Shown in pieces: positions 8,951 to 64,000 of a stretch of 64,000 nt of DNA. Source of the DNA: Glaucostegus cemiculus (lineage: Eukaryota); NCBI GenBank assembly GCA_976551045.1, contig CDPCPM010000061.1:1364001-1428000 (forward strand), given 5' to 3'. The first letter of the stretch is position 1, and the number at the start of each line of letters is the position of its first letter. Under the pieces are notes generated by a model. It ran no database searches. It was not told the origin of the DNA and saw only the letters and a program-made list of their open reading frames with translations. The position numbers and the translations under genes are program-made.

Positions 8951-8973
8951 CATTTGGTGGTGATGCTCAGTGG

Positions 8974-9092
8974 AGACACAAGAGATTGCAGATGCTGTAA
9001 CATGGAGCAAGAACAAACTGCCGGTAGGGCTCAGTGGATCATGGGACATCTGTGGAGACAAAGGGATGGTCGACATTCTGGGTTGTGACTCT
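8974..9092 (-). mobile_element. Penelope-terminus-derived short repeat, single arm
   Basis: gacacaagagattgcagatgctg...catctgtggagacaaagggatggtcgacatt is the reverse complement of the 17200-17310 type sequence. Confidence 0.65.
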
Positions 9093-10007
9093 GAGTCAGA
9101 AGGAAGATAACTTCCCACAGTATACTAGTTATGGCTGAACCAGAGGTTTATGGCAACTTCACCGAGGAATCCAGTCAGAAAGTCAAGAGAAATACCCTTG
9201 GTGAGAATGTGGAACTCAATGCAGTGGTTGAACCCAACAGAGGAAGCTATACAAGTAAATGTGGGAGAAGGAATTAGAAGATAGGAGTGGGCTTATGTGG
9301 ACTATAAGGGACCATCACAGGGCATTGGGCTGAAGGACCTCTTTCTCTGCTGTAAATTCAGTGCAGTTGGTCCAGAATACCTTTCTGGTTCTCACTGCTT
9401 TGAATCATGAAGGAATCGTATACAGCAAGAATCTCATTCGCTTTCAAAAAAACAGCAGAGAAACCTGGAGGGAGGAAGTTGTGTAAAACTACAACTCCCT
9501 GACACAAACTCCATTCTTCACGTGCAGGTAGAAGATGGCTGACTCTTCCCTGTTGCCTTATGGTGTAGAACAAAGGACTTTTGTGGGTATAGAGCTTCAT
9601 GCAAATTTAACCCCAATATCCTCAGTCCTGATATCAAGTTTGCAGATAATTCCACTCCATTCCTCACTTATTTCAGACCGCAGTCCCTCTGTGTGCACTG
9701 TCCTTGATTCTCGTGCAGTCTGATGTGTGGATCACTGTGTTCATGTCCTGTGGGCAGGCGATAATATTGTAGCTTTCAACTCCTGAAGATGAAAGTCCAA
9801 CCAACAGCTGTCAACCCTTGCCTTTGATGACTCCATTTTTAGTCCCTTTCTGTCTCTGCGTATTGCAATCTCTGATCTCGGATGGAAATCCTGTGCCAAG
9901 AATCCACTTTAAGAAGCTCGTTTTTTCTTTCATTTTGTTTTATTTTTCACTTTGTGAGCTCTGAGCTCTCTGTAAAGTTTCAGTCCATTGATGATCAACT
10001 GTTTGTT

Positions 10008-13968: not shown

Positions 13969-14160
13969 ATCCACTCCGACTTCTGTTGGAATATATTTGG
14001 GAATGTTTCAGCCATTTCCTTTAGCATGCTGGACTTCCTCTGCCATTTGGCCCATTGGTTCCAACCTGGTGTATCTGCTCCACATCTGCCTCCAGCCTCT
14101 CTATCTAGACCCATCCCATCACTTGATCTGTCTGTTCCTTTCTCCCTGCTTCTTCTAAAA

Positions 14161-14365
14161 CACAAGCAATCTGCTGGAGGAACTCAGTGGGTTGACCAGA
14201 ATCTGTGGGAGGAAAGGAATTGTTGACGTTTCAGCTCATGACGCAGAGTTTCGACCCGAACCATCGACGATTCCTTTCCTCCCACAGATGCTGCTTGACC
14301 TGCTGAGTTCCTCCAGCAGATTGCTTGTGGCTCCAGATTCCAGTCTCTGCAAATCCCTTATGTCT
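14161..14365. mobile_element. Palindromic Penelope-terminus-derived element
   Basis: 14161-14187 pairs perfectly with 14303-14329, and 14201-14220 with 14270-14289. Arms are homologous to 17200-17310. Confidence 0.8.
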
Positions 14366-14843
14366 CTCCTTAAATACATCTCAGCTCTTTGTCTCACCCC
14401 TTTGTTCTTCGGAGCCAAGTCTCACCTACCCACCAATCACTGGGGATAGCAGTTTCTCCAGAATTCCCAATTCTCCAGGACTCAGAAAATGGCCAAATCC
14501 TTCACCGCCAAGCCACTGCCCTAAATATTTGGTTAAAAATAAAATACGATAACCATCAAAATAAGATAAGGCTTGGAACCTATTGGGACCCTCTTGCTTG
14601 TCTATGACATTGCTGCAACTTGATATACTCTCATCTTGTGACATTTTGATTACTTTTTAAATGATTTCCATAACCTTTCCTGTCAGCTCCATCTTCTGAG
14701 GGCATCCCTCAGCTGCCAGTTTCAGTAATGAATGAGCTTTAAGAAGGAAATCATTTCCAGCATTCGAAGTATGAAGTTAGTGCATATCAAGATGCTCAAA
14801 GTCTACTATGGCTGTCACCTCAGCATAGGCTATTAACCTGCCC

Positions 14844-15135
14844 TAGTGGTTAGCACAATGCTTTACAGCACCAGCGACCCGGGTTCAAATCCAGCAACTG
14901 TCTGTAAGGAGTTTGTATGTTCTCCCCGTAACTGTGTGGGTTTCCTCCGGGTGCTCCAGTTTCCTCCCACATTCCAAAGACGTACAGGTTAGGAGGTTAC
15001 GGGCATGCTATGTTGGTGCTGGAAGTGTGGCGACACTTACAGGCTGCCTCCCAAAAACTACTACGCAAAAGATGTATTTCACTGTATGTTTCAATGTACA
15101 TGTGACTGATAAAGATCTGATCTTATCTCTTATCT
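14844..15135 (+). mobile_element. V-SINE with Rex1-like tail
   Basis: tRNA-like head (gggttcaaatcc), V-domain gtgggtttcctccgggtgctccagtttcctcccaca, tail ttcactgt...gtacatgtgactgataaa. Confidence 0.88.
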
Positions 15136-15584
15136 TCAGCATTATTATGAAATAGATATTAAACCACTGCCATACAGTTCAGTGTATAATTAAGCACACC
15201 AGTGAAAGAATTGAATCACTTCAGCTCTACATACAACTATATCAATATTCTATTCATTCTGTGTCAGAAATGCTAATGATTCAAAGTTTGCATCTATAGT
15301 AGTTAAAGTTCATGAGTTGTAACAACACCCTTGCAGCAGAATTTTCATTATTAGCTCTTCTTTTGACTTGTGGCAAAACCCAAACTAAACATCCAGATTG
15401 TGACAGAAGTAGGAATGGTTTTATTTTTGGTGTACATAAATACTATTCAGTTCAACAATCATCATTGTTGCTAGTGGGAAACTCTTAACATTATGTGTCC
15501 GGATATTTTGGTAGAATTTGGTCATTTCCTGCGTTGATCTCCTGTGAGCCAAGTTTACTTGTATTCCCTCTTTCATAACTCTGT

Positions 15585-17315
15585 CTGTGCCATCTCCCCT
15601 ATATACCTCCGTTCCCCATCATGACACCTTCACCGCCCTCCGCTTCTTTCTTGACCAGAGACAGAACCAGTCCCCTTCCACTAACACTCTCCTCCACCTG
15701 GCTGAATTTGTCCTCGCCCTAAACAACTTCACTTTTGATTCCTCTCACTTACTACAGACCAAGGGCACAACCATGGGCACTCGCATGGGCCACAGCTATG
15801 CCTCCTCTTCATTGGCTACGTTGAACAGTCTCTGATCCAAGCCTCCTCCAGCCCCAATCCTCCATTCTTTCTCCGTTATATCAACGACTGCATTGGTGCC
15901 ACCTCTTGCACCTGTGCAGAACTTGACAGTTTCATAAATTTTGCCACAAATTTTCACCCTGCTCTCCAATTCACTTGGACTATCTCTGACACCTCTCTCT
16001 CTCCTTCCTTGATCTTTCCATCTCCATCTCAGGAGATTCCTTATCCACCGACATCTCCTACAACCCACTAATGCCCACATCTACCTCGATTACAGTTCCA
16101 CCCACCCTGTCTCTTGCAAGGACACTATCCCTTTTTCTCAACTTCTCCGCCTGCGCTGCATCTGCTCCCATGATAAAGCCTTCCCCCCTGGGACATCCAA
16201 GATGTCCAACTTCTTTACTAACCGTGGCTTCCCCCCGACTGTGGTCGAGAGAGCTTGCACCCACACCTCTTGCATTTCCCGCACCTCTGCTCTCATCCCC
16301 ACCCCTCCCAGAGCCAACAGGGTGAGGGTTCCCCTTGTCCTCGCATTTCATCCCACCAGCTCACGTATCCAACATGTCATTCTCCGCCACTACCGCCATC
16401 TCAACGGGACCCCACCGCCAATTATATCTTCTGCCTTTTACAGGGACCACTATCTCCACGACTCCCGAGTTCACTCCTCCCTCCCCACCCATCCCGCTCC
16501 CACCCCGGGGACTTTCCACTGCCCCCGCCATAGGTGCAATCACCTCCTTCCAGGGACCCAAACAGTCCTTTCAGGTGAGACAGAGATTCACCTGCACCTC
16601 CCTTAATATCATCTGCTGCATTCGGTGCTGCAAGTGTGGCCTCCCCTACATTGGCGAGACCAAACGCAGACTAGGTGACCGTTTCGCAGAACACCTGTGC
16701 TCCGTCCGTAACTGTGATCTGCTTCCCCCTCCCCCTGTTGCCGGTCACCTCAAATCCCCCCTCCCCCTCCCACTCCATCACAGATATGTCAGTCCTCAGC
16801 CTCCTCCACTGCCAGGAGAAGTCCAGGCATAAACTGGAGGAACAGCACCTCATTTTCCATCTTGGAACCTTGCAGCCTAATAGCATGAACGTTGAATTCT
16901 CCCACTTTAAGTAATCCCCACAACCTTCCCCAACACCCTCCCCAACCATGCCTCTTCCCTTTCCTCACCTATCTCTCTTTTCTTTACCCTGCCCTCTTTT
17001 CCTCCTTACCTTTGACCTATCCCCCAGTAAATCTGATCTCCCCTCCTTCCCCACACCTGTCTATCACTGTCTCTTACCTGTATCGCCACCCCGTGCCCAC
17101 CCCACCTCCCCTCTTTTGTCCACCTATCGCTGCTCTGCTTTTCCCTCCCGTATATTGGGCTTCCCCTTTTCCTATCTTCAGTCCTGAAGAAGGGTCCTGA
17201 CCCAAAACATTGACCGCCTGCTTTTCTCCACAGATGCTGCCTGGCCTGCTGAGTTCCTCCAGCGTCATCATGTTTTTCATCTAGATTCCAGCATCTGCAG
17301 TCCTTTGTTTCTCTT
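15585..17315 (+). mobile_element. Penelope-like retroelement (RT C-terminal half, GIY-YIG endonuclease, terminal repeat); 5'-truncated and frameshifted
   Basis: PLE RT motifs LYTSVPH, QTKGTTMGTRMG, RYINDCIG; endonuclease NIICCIRCCKCGLPYIGETKRRLGDRFAEH; C-terminal EEQHLIFHLGTLQPNSMNVEF. Confidence 0.92.
17179..17216 (+). ncRNA. Degenerate minimal type I hammerhead ribozyme motif in the Penelope-like terminus
   Basis: GUC-CUGAAGA-[A GGGUC CU GACCC]-AAAACAUU-GAC. Restoring two CpG>CpA changes gives GAAACGUU; helix I is GUC/GAC. Confidence 0.62.
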
Positions 17316-17454
17316 CTCTATTTTCTGTTTCTCTTTCCTGCCTTGATATACCCACAATTTCACTCTTATGATGTTGTTGTATTCATTGTTTCGCAATTAA
17401 ATATTGTTTAATGCAATAACAGTCATTACAATAGGTCATATTGTGATGGGGACA

Positions 17455-19499: not shown

Positions 19500-19850
19500 T
19501 AGAGTCACACAGCACAGAAACGGGCCCTTCACCTAAGTGGTCCATGCCAACCAAGGTTCCCATCTAAGCCAGTCCCATTTGCCCACATTTGGCCTCTATC
19601 CTTCTAAACCTTTCCTATCCACGTACCTGTCCAAGTTCCTTTTAAATGTTGTTAATGTACCTGCCTCAACCACTTCCTCTGGCAACTCATTCCATATAAA
19701 TGTCTCCACTCTCACCTTGAACCTATGCCCTCTTGTTCTTGATTCCCTAACCCTGGGAAAAAGACTATGTCTCCCCTCTCACCTTAAACCTCTCTCCCTG
19801 ACCCTAAACCTATGCCCTCTTGTTCTTGATTCCCCAACCCTGGGAGAATA
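19500..19850 (-). mobile_element. CR1 3' fragment with an internal tandem duplication of about 55 bp
   Basis: acctatgccctcttgttcttgattccc..accctggga occurs twice (about 19721-19758 and 19808-19845). Confidence 0.8.
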
Positions 19851-35773: not shown

Positions 35774-36040
<267 letters not shown>

Positions 36041-40234: not shown

Positions 40235-40420
40235 GACACAAGATGCTGGAATCTGGAGCAACGCACAAGATGCTGGGCAGCAGGTCAGCCTGTGTCTCTG
40301 GAGGGAAATGGACACTTGATGTTTCAGGTCCACATGAAGGGTCTCAATCTGTAACGTTGACTAATCATTTCCCTCAGTAGATGCTGCCTGGCCTGCTGAG
40401 TTCCCCCAGCTCCTTTGTGA
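40235..40420. mobile_element. Palindromic Penelope-terminus-derived element, degenerate
   Basis: Inverted arms around atgaagggtctcaatctgtaacgttgac; the right arm ends gatgctgcctggcctgctgagttcccccagc. Confidence 0.7.
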
Positions 40421-41594
40421 ATTGTTCCTGTGAATACTGTGATTGTTTGACTCTTGCTGGTGGAGTCAATGCTCTGCAGATAAGAGGCCCTGGTCCAAAT
40501 GGAGGCTGATTTGGGCCTGTCTGCTGACTCCAATCTTCCGTTACTTAATGCTCAATAGGATCAAATCCCTCTTGTGCCAGACATTTCTTACACAGACACA
40601 ATGGGATGTTTACATTGACTGCTCCTTGCACAGGTGCAAAGGTTTTCACTTTTATGGGGAAGACCTTTAGTTAACAGGGCCTTATTTGAACAGTTCAGAG
40701 TGAAGTTTCACTTTGACGTGGGCCAGACTGACTTCTTCATCAGAAGACCGGGGTGGAGAGGGCAGGAAGGGGAGTTGCAAGGACACATTGAAGGGCCTGC
40801 CCCACAAGGGGAACAAGGATGGATACCATCACTAGACATGAAGATATTTAGCTCGTTGGTTCAGCCTAAGGCTATGCTGCACTAACGATGGCCAGCACTG
40901 TGGTGAAGACATGCCATCATGGTGTGCCCTGTGGTTGTGTGTCACTTTATCCTAAAAAAAATTATCAGTTAGCATTGTGCAATGTGTATGCATGAGAGGT
41001 ATCCAGTATGGCCAGCCTCAGGAATATGAGACGTGAGTCCTTCTCGATGGAGATTGTTGGTTGGCTGTCGATGAAGGTGAGATGCTCTGGGCTGGGTCTG
41101 AGGCGCGTGGTGTAGTTTGTCTGCAGATCCTTTTGCTACTCTTGAGCAGATGGGACACTGAACTTCCTCAGCACTGCTTTCAGCTTGACACCTTGCAAGA
41201 ACCACCATTCCCACTGCCTTTGCAGTGTTTGTCTTGTGGGTCCCTTGACCTCCTGTGGGGTGTAGCACACAACTTCAACCCAAGCCCAAGGGAAAATCTC
41301 AGAATCTGCTCTCTCTCCCACCTTAGTGTTTTTCAGGTCTCAGTAACATTGACAACAACAAGTAAACTTGCTCCAACCATGGCCTTAAAGTATTCATGAC
41401 AGTGGCCCCATGTAGCCTCTCAACAGTACTGGCCATTTACAAAACAGACTGTGTTGAAACTATGACCACAGATTATGATGTCTGTACTCATCTATTGGGG
41501 GTTACTTAATTTAGTACTTTATTCGTCTGCTGTGGAATGTTTCTCAATAACCCTCTCTCTAAACCATTCTGTGAGGGAGGATTCCTTAAGCTAA

Positions 41595-43361: not shown

Positions 43362-43595
<234 letters not shown>

Positions 43596-46468: not shown

Positions 46469-47539
46469 CATTAGCCATATGCTGCCAGCCTTAGATTTAT
46501 GGGTCAGCATTGCTGGGTAAAACCGTAGAGCTGGATGGGCTTGAAAAGAGAGAGAGGTTATGGGAAGAATAGTTTAAAACAATTATAATGAAAACACAAT
46601 CTCAGTTTTATTTTGAATTTCTGTCAAAGTTAAGCTAGGATTCTTACCTCATGCTGATGACCATGAGTTATAGACGGTCTAGGACTGAAGGGGGAAAAGA
46701 TGCAAAGAACGGTTTGTTTAAAATTCTCTCTTTGAGGAGTGCTGCCAAACATGGTGAGAGCACTGGGTACACTGATTAGGAAAAACCCAACATAAAGAGA
46801 AGTTGGTCACTTTAAATGACTAAAAGCCAATACATTGCACTTTCAAGTACATTAACATATCGCAAAGCTACAGTAACTAATCCAATCAGCTGAACACTTC
46901 TCTCCCAACTGGAAAGTTGTAAGATCAGATCACGGGGCTGTCTGTCATTGTAGCCCACTGGGTAAATTATTTTCTGCGTCCCATCACCCCACATTTATAA
47001 TTCTGTTTGGAAATTACAATAATTTTTCTGGTAAATTAGACAACACAAGCATGATGTAAATTTGGTGGATTGCATTCAACACTCCTGTTCAGTAATAGTA
47101 ATTCAGTGAACCCTTGATCCTCTGGAGAAGGAAAATACTTTTTAAATAGAATTTAAGTCCATGTTTTTAGCCACACAGTCACTAAAATACCTTATTTGCA
47201 ACTGTACAACCTATGTCCTTTCAAAACATTCCTTTTATAATATTACAGGGTGTTGGTCACATTATCCCTGGAGTCCTGCATATACTTTGCATCTCCTTGA
47301 CTGCGTTAGAGGGCATACAACGAGGAGCCATTAGACTGATCCCTGAAGTGAGAGGGTTGACAAAGGAGAAAAGTGTTGGACCTGTACTCATTTTAGTTTA
47401 GAAAAGTCCAGGGTGATCTCATTAAAATGTATCAGCTGAGAGTCTGTTTCCTTTGCCCAGTACTGGGGTCACGGAGTCAACCTCTTAACCTGCCTCGGGA
47501 TAAGGGATTGACTATTTAGGACGAAGATGAGTGTACAAC

Positions 47540-48245
47540 ATTCTGTTGGAGGAACTCAGCAGGTCGAGCAGCATCTGTGGAGGGAGAGGAATTTTAAAAT
47601 GGTTTATTATTGTCCATGTACTGAGGTATAGTGAAAAACTTTGTTTTGCGTACCATCCATACAGATTATTTCATCCCATCAGTACACTGAGGTAGTACAA
47701 GGGAAAAGCAACAACAGAATGCATAATAACAGTGTTACAGTTACAGAGAAAGTGCAGTGGAGGCAGACAATAAGGTGCAAGGCCATGACGAGATAGATTG
47801 TGAGGTCAAGAGTCCATCTTTTCGGACAATGGGACGTTCAATAGTCTTAGAACAGCGGGATAGAAGCTGTCCTAGAGTTTGGTGGTATGTACTTTCAAAC
47901 TTTTGTATCTTCTGCCTGATGGGAGGGGTGAGAAGGAGAGAGAATGTCTGGGTCTTTGATTATGTTGACTGCTTTACTGAGGCACCGAGAAGTGTAGACA
48001 GACTCGATGGAGGAGAGGCTGGTTTTTGTGATGTGTTGTGTGAAGCTGTGTTCACAGCTCTCTGCAGTTTCTTGCTGTCTCAGGCAGAGCAGTTGCCATA
48101 CCAAACCATGAATAAATTATATGAATAATATGAGGTGTTGTTCCTCCAGCTTGCTTTGGGCCTTAATCTGGCAGTGGAGAAGGACAAGGTTGGACAGGTC
48201 AGAGATTTGGAAGGGGAATTGAAATGGCATGCAACTGGGAGCTTT
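47540..48245 (-). mobile_element. Penelope-like remnants (terminus about 47540-47593; GIY-YIG end about 48130-48245) flanking a Rex1-type fragment (about 47600-48110)
   Basis: 47540-47593 matches the reverse complement of the 17220-17265 type; 48130-48240 matches the reverse complement of 16740-16855; the middle is colinear with 11135-11645. Confidence 0.72.
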
Positions 48246-53050: not shown

Positions 53051-53194
53051 AGGTTTTAACTGCTTCAGAGATAGGATCTAAGCAATGGTACATATGTGGG
53101 AGAAAGCTCAGCTCACCAAATTGTGAATGGCTTGTCTCAACTTGTAATTTCACTTACTAGGAAAGCCATTAAAAAGAAGCCCAATTATTGTACA

Positions 53195-53385
53195 GCTGCT
53201 GGAATCTGGAGCAACTTGTGTTTCCAATAAGAGAGAAACTGCTGGAGGAACTCAGTGGGTCAAGCAGCATCTGTGGAGGGGAAAGGAACTACCAACTCTG
53301 CAAGGTCTCTATCTGAGACATTGACAATTCCTTTGCCCTCACAGACGCTACTCAATCTGTTGAGTTCCTCCAGCAGTTTGCTTTC
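53195..53385. mobile_element. Palindromic Penelope-terminus-derived element
   Basis: aaactgctggaggaactca (about 53236-53254) pairs with tgagttcctccagcagttt (53361-53379). Confidence 0.75.
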
Positions 53386-53854
53386 AGTCCAATTATTGGG
53401 ACAGGTTGGATGCAAGAAGCAGCCAGACTATCCATTTCCTCTGCAGAAACACAATCATTAATAGTGCACTTGTCGTCATGGCCATCCCTCGAGGGTCTTT
53501 GTTCCGTTGAACTATTTATGGGCTCTCAAGTGGCTTATGAGTCCAACCTTGGCTCTGAAAGTTCTTCCGCATTCAGGACAGGTAGTTCCAGCTGGCAGAT
53601 CAGGCTCCGGTTGTTTCTGCTTCTCTTTCCATTTTCTTCTCTTTTCCTCTAACTCTGCTGCTGTTCCTTCTCAGATAATGGTTTGCCAGTGTTTCCTGTT
53701 CTTGGCATCGGTTTCCCAATTGTTAAGTGCACTTGCAGATATATTCGAAAGCAAAAGTTAAAAAAAAATCTATCTGTTTGCCAGGTTTACTTCTGAACAC
53801 TGCAGTGATGGGATAACTGGCATGAATCATTTGTATTTTCCTGTCCTTTTGCAG

Positions 53855-54092
53855 ATATGTAATTGCAAATCCGCCCTATGAGTTTGAACTTGTCCCAACT
53901 GATGTGATCTTCTGCCTGATGCAATTTGACCACAATGCTGGCCAGTCCCGAGGCAGCATGTCGCACTCGTCTCATTCCTCTCACTCTTCCAGTAAGAAAA
54001 GCTCGTCTGTGCACTCCATCCCATCTTCCACCAACCGTCCAAACCGGAACAAGACAAGGGATCCCCGGGAAAAGCAGAAGTATGTTGCTTGA
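53855..54092 (+). CDS. KCNMA1: Exon [74 protein letters not shown]; spliced form ends at 54079, read-through form ends KYVA* at 54092
   Basis: Matches the Slo1 distal C-terminus. Acceptor ccttttgcag, internal donor CAGAA|gtatgt after 54079 (225 nt), TGA at 54090-54092. Confidence 0.97.
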
Positions 54093-58745: not shown

Positions 58746-59029
58746 TGAATCTTTTACACCTCATTTTTCTAATGTCTGATGAGTTTGGACCACTCTTCCT
58801 CATTTCGCCTCACCGGGCAGGAATCAATCAAATGAACCCGTGTGGTACCAGCTCCTGGCCAAGTTGGACTCAGCTACTAACCTGCTTTCAGTGCTTCAAA
58901 CAGTCTCATGACAAGACTTGTTCAATCTCAGCAAGGCTTCCATACTTATTGCACCCCCAACTCCTTGAAAGAGAGGTTAACCTACATTTTGCCTTCCTAA
59001 TTGCTTACTGTATCTGCTTAATTGCTCTT

Positions 59030-59210
59030 TCTTCACCCCTTCCCTCCACCTTTCTATACTAGCTATCTTCCCCTCTTTCTTTCCAGTCCAGATGAAGGGG
59101 TTTCTCCCAAAATGTCAACTATCCATTACCATCCATAGATGCTGCCCAAGCTGCTGAGTTCCTCCAACATCTTATGTGTTGCTCCAGCATCTGCAGTCTC
59201 TTGTGTCTCC
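59030..59210 (+). mobile_element. Penelope terminus copy with a degenerate hammerhead-like segment
   Basis: Pyrimidine tract followed by cagtccagatgaaggggtttctcccaaaatgtcaact...gatgctgcc..gctgagttcctcca, colinear with 17100-17310. Confidence 0.75.
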
Positions 59211-61230: not shown

Positions 61231-61438
61231 GAGAACAAACTACTGGAGGAACCCAGTGGGTCAAGCAGCATCTGTGGAAGCAGAGGGATGGTCAACATTT
61301 GGGTCAAAACCTTTCATCAGGACCTGATTCTCAGTCTCAACCATCCTTTTGGCTCCTCAGATGCTGCTTAACCCACTGAGTTCCTCCAGCAGCTTGTTCT
61401 AACGCTCCAGATTACCGCATCTGCAGTCTCTTGTATCT
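61231..61438. mobile_element. Palindromic Penelope-terminus-derived element
   Basis: Inverted arms. The minus strand of about 61290-61323 reads gtcCTGATGAaaggttttgacccaaatgttgac. Confidence 0.78.
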
Positions 61439-61441
61439 TCA

Positions 61442-61738
61442 CTGTAGTGCAGTGGTTAGCATAACGCTTTACGACACCAGTGACCTGGGTTCAATTCCGG
61501 TCACTGTCTGTAAGGAGTTTGTACGTTCTCCCCGTGTGTCTGTGTGGGTTTCCTCCGGGTGCTCCGGTTTCCTCCCACATTCCAAAGGCATACGGGTTAG
61601 GAAGTTGTGGGCACGCTATGTTGGAGCCGGAAGTGTGGCAACACTTGCGGGCTGCCCCCAGAACACTACGCAAAAAAAGGTGCATTTCACTGTGTGCTTT
61701 GATGTACACATGACTAATAAAGATATCTTAAAGATATC
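61442..61738 (+). mobile_element. V-SINE with Rex1-like tail
   Basis: tRNA-like head gggttcaattcc, V-domain, tail ttcactgtgtgctttgatgtacacatgactaataaagatatctta. Confidence 0.9.
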
Positions 61739-63079: not shown

Positions 63080-63221
63080 TCAAAATGCTGGAAACACACA
63101 GCAGGTCAGGTAGCATCTGTGGAAAGAGAACAAGAGTTAACATTTCACTTATCGGATCTTGTTAACTCTGCTTCTCTTCCCACAGATGCTGCCTGACCTG
63201 CTGAGTATTTCCAGCATTTGT
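63080..63221. mobile_element. Palindromic Penelope-terminus-derived element with the centre deleted or replaced
   Basis: aaatgctggaaa...cagcaggtcaggtagcatctgtggaa pairs with ttccacagatgctgcctgacctgctg...tttccagcattt. Confidence 0.78.
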
Positions 63222-63461
63222 TTTTTTTTACAGCGTGGTAACAGGCCCTTTCAGCCCTCTGAGTCCACGCCACCCATTTTTAACCCCCAAATTAACCTAC
63301 CCGTACGTCTTTCAGAATGTGGGAGGAAACCGGAGCACCCGGAGGAAACCCACGCAGACACGGGAGAACGTACAAACTCCTTACAGACAGCGATGAGAAT
63401 CGAACCCCGATCGCTGGCGCTGTAACAGCGTCGCGCTAACCGCTACGCTATCGTGCTGCCC
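63222..63461 (-). mobile_element. Young, CpG-rich V-SINE with CR1-like tail
   Basis: Full tRNA-like head and V-domain on the minus strand; most CpGs are retained. Confidence 0.9.
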
Positions 63462-64000
63462 AAATAAAATGGCTATAGCTTTTTTTAGGGTTTTTTTTAC
63501 GGAGAATTTAGGAAGATTGTCATCAAGAGATTTGTCAAAGAAGAGAATTTTCACATGGTTGGAAGAGGAGGAGGAGAGGTGTTTGTGGGAAGGATGGGTG
63601 TGTGCAGGGGAAATGTCAGACTAGGGTGCTGCAGCATTTAGAAACATGATTGAGAATGATGGAATAATAGGGTGTAAAGGGAATGGAATTTTGATTTTGC
63701 CCTCAGGATGTAAACGTTGCTGACAAGGCCAACGTTCATTGCAAATTCCTAAATTCCCCGAGCAGAGTAGTTTGTTAAGCTGTTTATGACGGTAGTTAGG
63801 AATTAATTATGTCGTTGTACGTGAAGTCACAGAGAGAGCAGACTGGCTAAGAGTGGAAGATGCCCTCCTCTGAAGGACATTTGTGAACCAGGCGGGTTTT
63901 CATAAACAAGCAGCAGTCTTGTCTTCACCACTATTGAGACTGAAGGCCAGAAATGCAGCAGGTTTCACTACCACAGCAACAAACAATCTCCTGGAGGAAC

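What the first reader, a model, noticed from the sequence alone, without database searches (positions are those of the whole stretch)
14161..14329. Family of short palindromic (fold-back) elements built from the Penelope ribozyme terminus
At least five elements (14161-14365, 40235-40420, 53195-53385, 61231-61438, 63080-63221) are two inverted copies of the sequence that ends the Penelope-like element at 17180-17310. They are joined at or near the hammerhead segment. Single arms occur at about 5895, 8974, 47540 and 59030. In the 14161 copy the arms pair perfectly over 27 bp and 20 bp, more closely than they match other copies, which suggests the fold-back formed at insertion. They look like MITEs but seem retro-derived: either extreme 5'-inverted Penelope truncations or a non-autonomous, retrozyme-like family. 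Each would form a 60-70 bp hairpin in the KCNMA1 pre-mRNA.
Basis: partly seen in the sequence, partly recalled or inferred. Interest (0 to 1): 0.7.

Follow-up and report, generated by a model that had tools for sequence, protein, structure and literature searches.

The report
Double-primed Penelope fold-back insertion stumps
These short mirror-image repeats in a shark- or ray-like genome are real and very common, but they are stumps of a known kind of jumping gene (Penelope-like), each likely made afresh when the element copied its RNA from both sides of the DNA cut, rather than a separate self-spreading family.

Summary
All five palindromes and four single arms are real. They are ends of Penelope-like elements (PLEs) and belong to five subfamilies, not one. 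An unbiased 1-Mb genome sample held 34 close head-to-head pairs (about 100,000 genome-wide, extrapolated) and no close tail-to-tail pair. Typically one arm carries the ~35-bp PLE tail and the other does not; 12-16-bp target duplications flank the unit; the junction varies; and the same layout runs from 150 bp to 2 kb. This refutes a MITE and argues against one master element or a retrozyme. The layout (inverted pLTR, one-sided tail, TSD) is published. In many units neither arm contains the other, which favours two cDNAs primed from opposite target strands over the published snap-back idea. Arm 5' ends pile up at the hammerhead's edge, just behind a TATA-like and initiator-like pair, likely the RNA start. 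Arms within a copy are no more alike than arms of different copies of the same subfamily, and the 14161 hammerhead is broken. The scan reported this structure before, in other sharks and elsewhere in this genome.

The parts
14161..14241 (-). Left arm: antisense copy of PLE end (subfamily F2), no tail, about model positions 98 to 18
14238..14329 (+). Right arm: sense copy starting about 5 nt into the minimal type I hammerhead; catalytic core mutated
14330..14366 (+). One-sided PLE tail (~37 bp)
14151..14164 (.). Candidate left TSD copy (11 of 14 match to 14365-14378; score 6.5, inconclusive alone but at the expected place)
14365..14378 (.). Candidate right TSD copy
40235..40430 (.). Fold-back unit, subfamily F5, tail on left arm; no TSD found
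53191..53387 (.). Fold-back unit (F1/F2 ambiguous), shortened tail on left; perfect 10-bp TSD at 53181-53190 and 53389-53398
61233..61440 (.). Fold-back unit, subfamily F1, tail on right, junction class (1,19) with 3-bp microhomology; a dispersed repeat follows at once, TSD not found
63081..63224 (.). Fold-back unit, divergent subfamily F3, no tail seen; a dispersed repeat follows the right arm
15525..17313 (+). 5'-truncated, frameshifted coding PLE (subfamily F4): RT motifs, GIY-YIG endonuclease, 3' pLTR with tail; left end approximate
17149..17185 (+). TATA-like element (~17149-17156) and initiator-like TCAGT; predicted RNA start at about 17180, one base before hammerhead stem I
   Evidence: inferred
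17181..17214 (+). Minimal type I hammerhead motif of the long PLE (decayed: AAAA for GAAA)
   Evidence: architecture as in PMC4209133
5898..5989 (+). Single arm, F2, no tail
8972..9100 (-). Single arm, F1, with tail
47537..47595 (-). Single arm, F2, abutting another repeat
58870..59210 (+). Single arm, F5, with tail and upstream pLTR

Best explanation
Each palindrome is a separate, very short insertion of an endonuclease-bearing Penelope-like retrotransposon, likely built from two cDNAs, one primed from each strand of a staggered cut, that would join head-to-head. Shown: PLE-end arms, one-sided tail, 12-16-bp TSD, variable junction, five subfamilies, a size continuum, and 5' ends piling up at the hammerhead edge. 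Inferred: (1) the staggered cut gives two 3'-OH primers; (2) one cDNA starts at the tail-end site (~position 132) and the other at the inner site (~95-100), the two start sites shown in vitro for an anole Poseidon PLE (PMC11167929); (3) on RNA that begins at the pLTR start about one base before the hammerhead, a cDNA runs off after at most ~135 nt; (4) its 3' end anneals by 0-5 bp of microhomology inside the other cDNA, whose overhang is trimmed, so one arm reaches +1 and the other is variably short. The products are most likely dead; the hairpin would bury the already mutated hammerhead.
For: Orientation: 33 head-to-head pairs under 30 bp apart and 0 tail-to-tail among 232 arms in 1 Mb. One arm with tail and one without in 25 of 34 random pairs (4 none, 2 both, 3 unclear) and 27 of 29 pairs in similarity-picked loci. 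TSD score >=8 in 23 of 51 filtered pairs against 1.5% of 398 shuffled pairings. Both arms of the same subfamily in 22 of 23 confident pairs, 29% expected. The tail-less arm reaches >=8 nt further 5' than the tailed arm in 11 of 26 random pairs (tailed arm longer in 7; 24 against 22 of 56 overall), so neither arm contains the other. Strongest cases: L169 (625-bp tailed arm, 1.4-kb tail-less arm, 16-bp perfect TSD), L171 (15 of 16) and L149 (13 of 13). L043 is a ~1.07-kb palindrome with a 15-bp perfect TSD. F2 has long copies with upstream pLTR, and L133 reaches the endonuclease region. 5' ends: 83 of 225 arms within -10..+9 of the hammerhead edge against 10 in -60..-11; simulated truncations were placed correctly. 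TATA-like motif at -36..-23 in 23 of 48 long copies. 7 of 15 short tailed solos carry a TSD, 5 of them within about 7 bp of that edge (control 1.4%). Junction microhomology averages 1.4 bp against 0.7 for random joints.
Against: No biochemical or transcript evidence for dual priming or for the start site. The in-vitro system is a Poseidon element, whereas these carry the Neptune/Nematis-type linker. Later central deletions could mimic short-scale asymmetry. One junction class (1,19) holds 8 of 33 F2 copies, which could be partial common descent; it also occurs in F1 and with the tail on either arm (2 long, 6 short), and 27 of those 33 loci were picked by similarity to 14161. 15 of 45 junctions show no microhomology. 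28 of 51 pairs had no strong TSD, and 14161's own TSD is weak. The pyrimidine tract plus CAG before the hammerhead also fits a splice acceptor. The TATA control windows are C/T-rich and weak, and the simulation reused training copies, so it is optimistic.
Confidence: 0.7

Rival explanations
1. Self-priming (snap-back): one cDNA folds on itself at the hammerhead palindromes and copies itself; later central deletions make the arms unequal.
For: Proposed for PLE inverted junctions in PMC3846280 (Discussion read). Fits the 22 of 56 pairs where the tailed arm is the longer and the junction microhomologies.
Against: It cannot give a tail-less arm that is longer at 5' than the tailed arm, yet 24 of 56 pairs are so, by 0.8-1.2 kb in L169 and L171 under one TSD. 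One arm keeps +1 while only the other is shortened, which deletions across the apex would not usually do.
Confidence: 0.14
2. An independent non-autonomous palindromic (retrozyme-like or SINE-like) family copied from a few master hairpins by PLE enzymes.
For: About 34 per Mb; recurrent junction classes (1,19) x8, (-2,24) x3, (3,13) x3 in F2. Short copies starting at +1 could be sources if the promoter is internal, as in D. virilis Penelope (PMC2377424, passages).
Against: Five subfamilies; 19 junctions in 33 F2 copies; the tail switches sides within one junction class; within-copy divergence equals between-copy divergence; continuum to coding copies; no tandem hammerhead arrays; broken cores.
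Confidence: 0.08
3. Same two-cDNA origin, but the 5' edge marks a splice acceptor or a processing or stall site at the hammerhead, not the transcription start.
For: All five subfamilies have a pyrimidine tract and CAG before the hammerhead; in D. virilis the intron ends at helix I (PMC4209133).
Against: 24 short solos share no upstream exon-like sequence, and identity fades at -1/-2, keeping the A (14 of 24). Self-cleavage would leave ends near position 31, not +1; the histogram has no peak there.
Confidence: 0.2
4. A DNA-transposon MITE, or chance back-to-back insertions made alike by gene conversion.
For: Short, palindromic, high copy number; 14161 arms are very alike.
Against: Unequal ends, variable 12-16-bp TSD around the whole unit, PLE homology, no tail-to-tail pairs. 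No excess of shared variants in F2 (11 against a permutation mean of 9.1); CpG decay is concordant in 17 and discordant in 19 sites.
Confidence: 0.02

Closest known systems
Insertion units of endonuclease-positive PLEs with inverted 5'-truncated pLTR, one-sided 30-40-bp tail and TSD (Adineta Pen2a_Av, PMC3846280; PMC8557442 Fig. 2 legend)
   Same: Head-to-head inverted terminal copy, tail on one end only, TSD, junction overlap, TATA/Inr-like motifs in the pLTR.
   Different: Here the unit is mostly reduced to ~150-210 bp with no ORF, at roughly 100,000 copies; non-nested arms argue against the snap-back reading in that paper.
Anolis Poseidon PAc in vitro (PMC11167929)
   Same: Two RT start sites bracketing the tail, both target strands cut and extended, predicted dimer, uncleaved RNA as template.
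   Different: In the parts read (main text) it does not derive inverted units from use of both sites at one target; different clade.
Minimal type I hammerheads of metazoan PLE pLTRs (PMC4209133)
   Same: Same architecture; opposite-strand pairs 100-700 bp apart were noted in Schistosoma.
   Different: F1 and F2 carry C at core position 9; the 14161 cores are broken; opposed motifs cannot form the tandem dimer.
Non-LTR retrozymes (bioRxiv 10.64898/2026.07.22.740005)
   Same: Short, non-coding, hammerhead-bearing, PLE-derived.
   Different: Retrozymes are head-to-tail tandem arrays; these are head-to-head pairs with tail and TSD.
L1 twin priming (search listing only; details recalled)
   Same: Both target strands prime cDNA; join by microhomology.
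   Different: In L1 the inverted part is a different RNA segment; here both arms copy the same segment from two fixed start sites.

Membership tests
EN+ Penelope-like element insertion | Terminus continuous with a PLE ORF ending in a C-terminal GIY-YIG endonuclease with CCHH | tested here: met
   GIY-YIG hits below the curated cut-off (E 0.006-0.18); motifs visible; F2 terminus linked to the EN region in L133.
EN+ Penelope-like element insertion | PLE-type reverse transcriptase | tested here: inconclusive
   RT-like motifs read by eye (assignment recalled); no RT hit in Pfam, PDB or the homolog search.
EN+ Penelope-like element insertion | Hammerhead motif in the pLTR | tested here: met
   Core CTGA(T/A)GA..GAAACGTC in the F3-F5 profiles, with a C variant in F1/F2; Rfam gave no hammerhead hit in the window.
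EN+ Penelope-like element insertion | Inverted 5'-truncated copy, one-sided 30-40-bp tail | tested here: met
   25 of 34 and 27 of 29 pairs; long copies.
EN+ Penelope-like element insertion | Variable-length TSD | tested here: met
   23 of 51 against 1.5%; weak at 14161.
Neptune/Nematis clade | CX2-5CxxC linker between RT and EN | tested here: met
   Cys pattern in P0001, an F4 copy; definition from PMC8557442 passages.
Neptune/Nematis clade | RT phylogeny | not tested
   No reference RT set was obtained.
MITE (DNA transposon) | Symmetric TIR ends | tested here: not met
   Ends differ by the tail.
MITE (DNA transposon) | Fixed short TSD (TA, 8 bp, 9 bp) | tested here: not met
   Mostly 12-16 bp and variable.
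Non-LTR retrozyme | Head-to-tail tandem units each with an intact hammerhead | tested here: not met
   Close pairs are head-to-head (33) rather than same-strand (3); cores often broken.
Non-LTR retrozyme | Circular RNA, self-cleavage | not testable with these tools
   Available RNA libraries are fragmented and multi-copy.
Independent non-autonomous family | Fixed junction and length from a master copy | tested here: not met
   19 junctions in 33 F2 copies; 150 bp to 2 kb.

The most novel reading that the evidence does not exclude
These stumps are the fossil record of the unsolved PLE integration step. A PLE dimer primes cDNA from both strands of a 12-16-nt staggered cut, using its two internal start sites one per strand, on an RNA capped at the hammerhead's first base. 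The tail, the inverted pLTR and about 100,000 hairpins would all be one reaction's output.
Probability: 0.55. Interest if true: 0.55.

Novelty: new member of a known kind. Interest (0 to 1): 0.33.

Why it matters
As objects these are ordinary retroelement debris. Their value is as a large natural dataset on PLE integration, which PMC8557442 calls still undefined: non-nested arms under one TSD discriminate two-cDNA priming from the published snap-back idea, and the sharp 5' edge predicts the RNA start, both directly testable in the existing in-vitro system. In practice, repeat annotators may mislabel them as MITEs or microRNA hairpins (Rfam gave sub-threshold miRNA matches). About 100,000 hairpins of ~70 bp would also be a potential double-stranded RNA load in this genome (untested).

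Tried and rejected
Rfam: only sub-threshold miRNA-precursor matches caused by the hairpin; no hammerhead family. Gene conversion between arms: no excess sharing in F2; the excess in F5 and F1 involves variants common in the family and reflects sub-subfamilies. RNA: no RNA holder listed. Raw RNA reads of a same-label organism cover the repeat family on both strands and include strand-switch joints, but show no sharp starts or ends and almost nothing on 14161's unique flanks, so they say nothing on the start site, cleavage, editing or locus expression. RT confirmation by Pfam, PDB and longer homologs found nothing; the Atlas gave no result. The sigma-70 promoter scan is irrelevant to a eukaryote. 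No TSD found for 40235, 61231, 63080 or 8974. Literature searches found no paper on short PLE palindromes in cartilaginous fish or a two-cDNA PLE model; the library lacks most subscription papers and Repbase reports, and no supplements were read.

Full report
Observation. Window 14161-14329 is an inverted repeat with perfect stretches of 27 and 20 bp. The + strand of 14161-14368 folds at -123.7 kcal/mol, z -13.9. The right arm continues as a one-sided extension to about 14366. The arms match the end of the long element at 17177-17317 (73% over 145 bp). That element is a broken PLE: RT-like motifs (read by eye, assignment recalled), a Cys linker, and a GIY-YIG domain with sub-threshold Pfam hits. 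The host gene is a Slo-family channel on the + strand: BK_channel_a exons 91-113 kb upstream, Slowpoke_C exons at 43413 and 51871, a poly-Asp exon frame at 35774 and a last detected exon at 53826-54092. The name KCNMA1 rests on the recalled calcium-bowl motif. 61231 and 63080 lie beyond the last exon found. The cartilaginous-fish label is from recalled repeat sequences and earlier scan notes, not from a call.

Genome sample. The genome is 2.85 Gb. I took 100 stretches of 10 kb at round coordinates on larger contigs as a sample not chosen for this repeat. It held 232 arms in five subfamilies. Among neighbours under 30 bp apart, 33 were head-to-head, 3 same-strand and none tail-to-tail. With a 40-bp limit there are 34 pairs (bootstrap 24-45), about 97,000 genome-wide (68,000-128,000; a rough extrapolation). 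Both arms fall in the same subfamily in 22 of 23 confidently assigned pairs, against 29% expected.

Anatomy. One arm ends at the tail end (model 126-133) and the other near 90-105 in 25 of 34 random pairs (4 with neither, 2 with both, 3 unclear), in 27 of 29 pairs from similarity-picked loci, and in 4 of 5 window copies. Of 85 head-to-head pairs, 51 had a clear tail end and a clear tail-less end and were tested for TSDs: 23 scored 8 or more, against 1.5% of 398 shuffled pairings, with lengths mostly 12-16 bp. At 14161 the candidate is 11 of 14 bp, inconclusive alone; 53195 has a perfect 10-bp TSD. Junctions vary: 19 distinct in 33 F2 copies, microhomology averaging 1.4 bp against 0.7 for random joints, 15 of 45 with none. 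The commonest class (1,19) uses a 3-bp match, recurs in F1 at 61231, and occurs with the tail on either arm. The same layout scales up: L043 is about 1.07 kb with a perfect 15-bp TSD, and 6 of 25 coding-copy loci carry an inverted arm 5' of the ORF. The 14161 subfamily has long relatives: 802 pattern matches with upstream pLTR; 29 of 30 fetched loci are F2, and L133 reaches the endonuclease region.

Arm likeness. In F2, non-CpG divergence within copies is 13.9% (32 pairs) and between copies 14.0%. Shared variants number 11 against a permutation mean of 9.1, and CpG decay is concordant in 17 and discordant in 19 sites. 14161 is the closest of 33 pairs (3 of 56), but both of its arms are simply near the family norm.

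Mechanism. A single cDNA snapping back on itself, as proposed in PMC3846280 (passages and Discussion read), makes the second arm a sub-segment of the first. In 11 of 26 random pairs (24 of 56 overall) the tail-less arm reaches at least 8 nt further 5' than the tailed arm, so neither contains the other. In L169 a 625-bp tailed arm and a 1.4-kb tail-less arm share a perfect 16-bp TSD; L171 (15 of 16) and L149 (13 of 13) are alike. Of 13 long or intermediate units checked, 6 scored above 8. Two cDNAs are the simplest reading. PMC11167929 (main text read) shows that a Poseidon PLE cuts and extends both strands and starts at two sites bracketing the tail, on uncleaved RNA; applying this to one target and to a Neptune-type element is my inference. 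Arm 5' ends pile up at the hammerhead edge: 83 of 225 within -10..+9 against 10 in -60..-11 (7 of 232 arms had no extended coordinate). A truncation simulation placed ends correctly, although it reused training copies. In 24 short solos identity fades at -1/-2 with no shared upstream sequence, and 7 of 15 tailed short solos have a TSD, 5 of them close to that edge. A TATA-like motif sits about 30 nt upstream in 23 of 48 long copies, before an initiator-like TCAGT (motif consensus recalled; the anchor selected for CAGT). PMC3846280 notes a similar pair in a rotifer pLTR, while D. virilis Penelope has a TATA-less internal promoter (PMC2377424, passages). I infer run-off at the RNA start; a splice acceptor remains possible (PMC4209133, parts 1-2 of 4 read).

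Ribozyme and RNA. The motif is the minimal type I hammerhead of PLE pLTRs. F1 and F2 carry C at core position 9, and the 14161 cores are further mutated and predicted to be buried in the hairpin. The RNA lays were uninformative.

Comparison and novelty. Inverted pLTR, one-sided tail and TSD are the published signature of EN+ PLEs (PMC3846280; PMC8557442, passages), and opposite-strand hammerhead pairs were noted in Schistosoma (PMC4209133). Retrozymes are tandem arrays (bioRxiv 10.64898/2026.07.22.740005, part 1 of 5 and passages), which these are not. Eight searches found no paper on these short palindromes in cartilaginous fish or on a two-cDNA PLE model; coverage is limited and supplements were not read. 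Earlier notes of this scan describe the same structure in other sharks and in this genome, including the twin-primed reading and the RNA-start hint. They are AI notes, not support. I had written down the two-cDNA idea before reading them; the pointer to PMC3846280 and the RNA-start hint came up with them.

Verdict. Real, abundant and ordinary in kind: a new member of a known class of PLE insertion products. The mechanistic clue is worth a specialist's look but is inferred. Interest 0.33.

Noticed in passing
window 63975-64000: A further antisense PLE arm begins at the window's edge and is cut off.
   Followed up: no
subfamilies F1 and F2 (e.g. L129-L158:1507-1516): Both carry C instead of A at hammerhead core position 9 as the family norm (CTGATGC), yet F2 has coding-length relatives, so it spread with this variant core.
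   Followed up: partly
L173 (oriented as) about 250-2760: The inverted repeat extends beyond the PLE ends into non-PLE flank on both sides: a larger inverted duplication or an assembly effect.
   Followed up: no
L050:4364-4668: F4 fold-back with a 94-bp centre holding a direct copy of the tail plus other sequence between the arms.
   Followed up: no
window 61443-61730 and 63225-63450: Dispersed SINE-like repeats (copies at 14845, 25100, 28081, 46174) sit exactly against the ends of two fold-back units, hiding their TSDs.
   Followed up: partly
tail-less ends, e.g. L023, L028, L169, L171: The TSD often overlaps the tail-less arm end by a few matching bases, while the tail end looks blunt: possible microhomology priming at the inner site only. 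Not quantified.
   Followed up: no
window 19711-19761 and 19798-19848: Two 51-bp copies 87 bp apart (90% alike) inside a dispersed repeat.
   Followed up: no
window 53826-54092: Channel exon frame with a Ser/His-rich stretch ending in a stop; whether alternative C-terminal exons follow was not checked.
   Followed up: no
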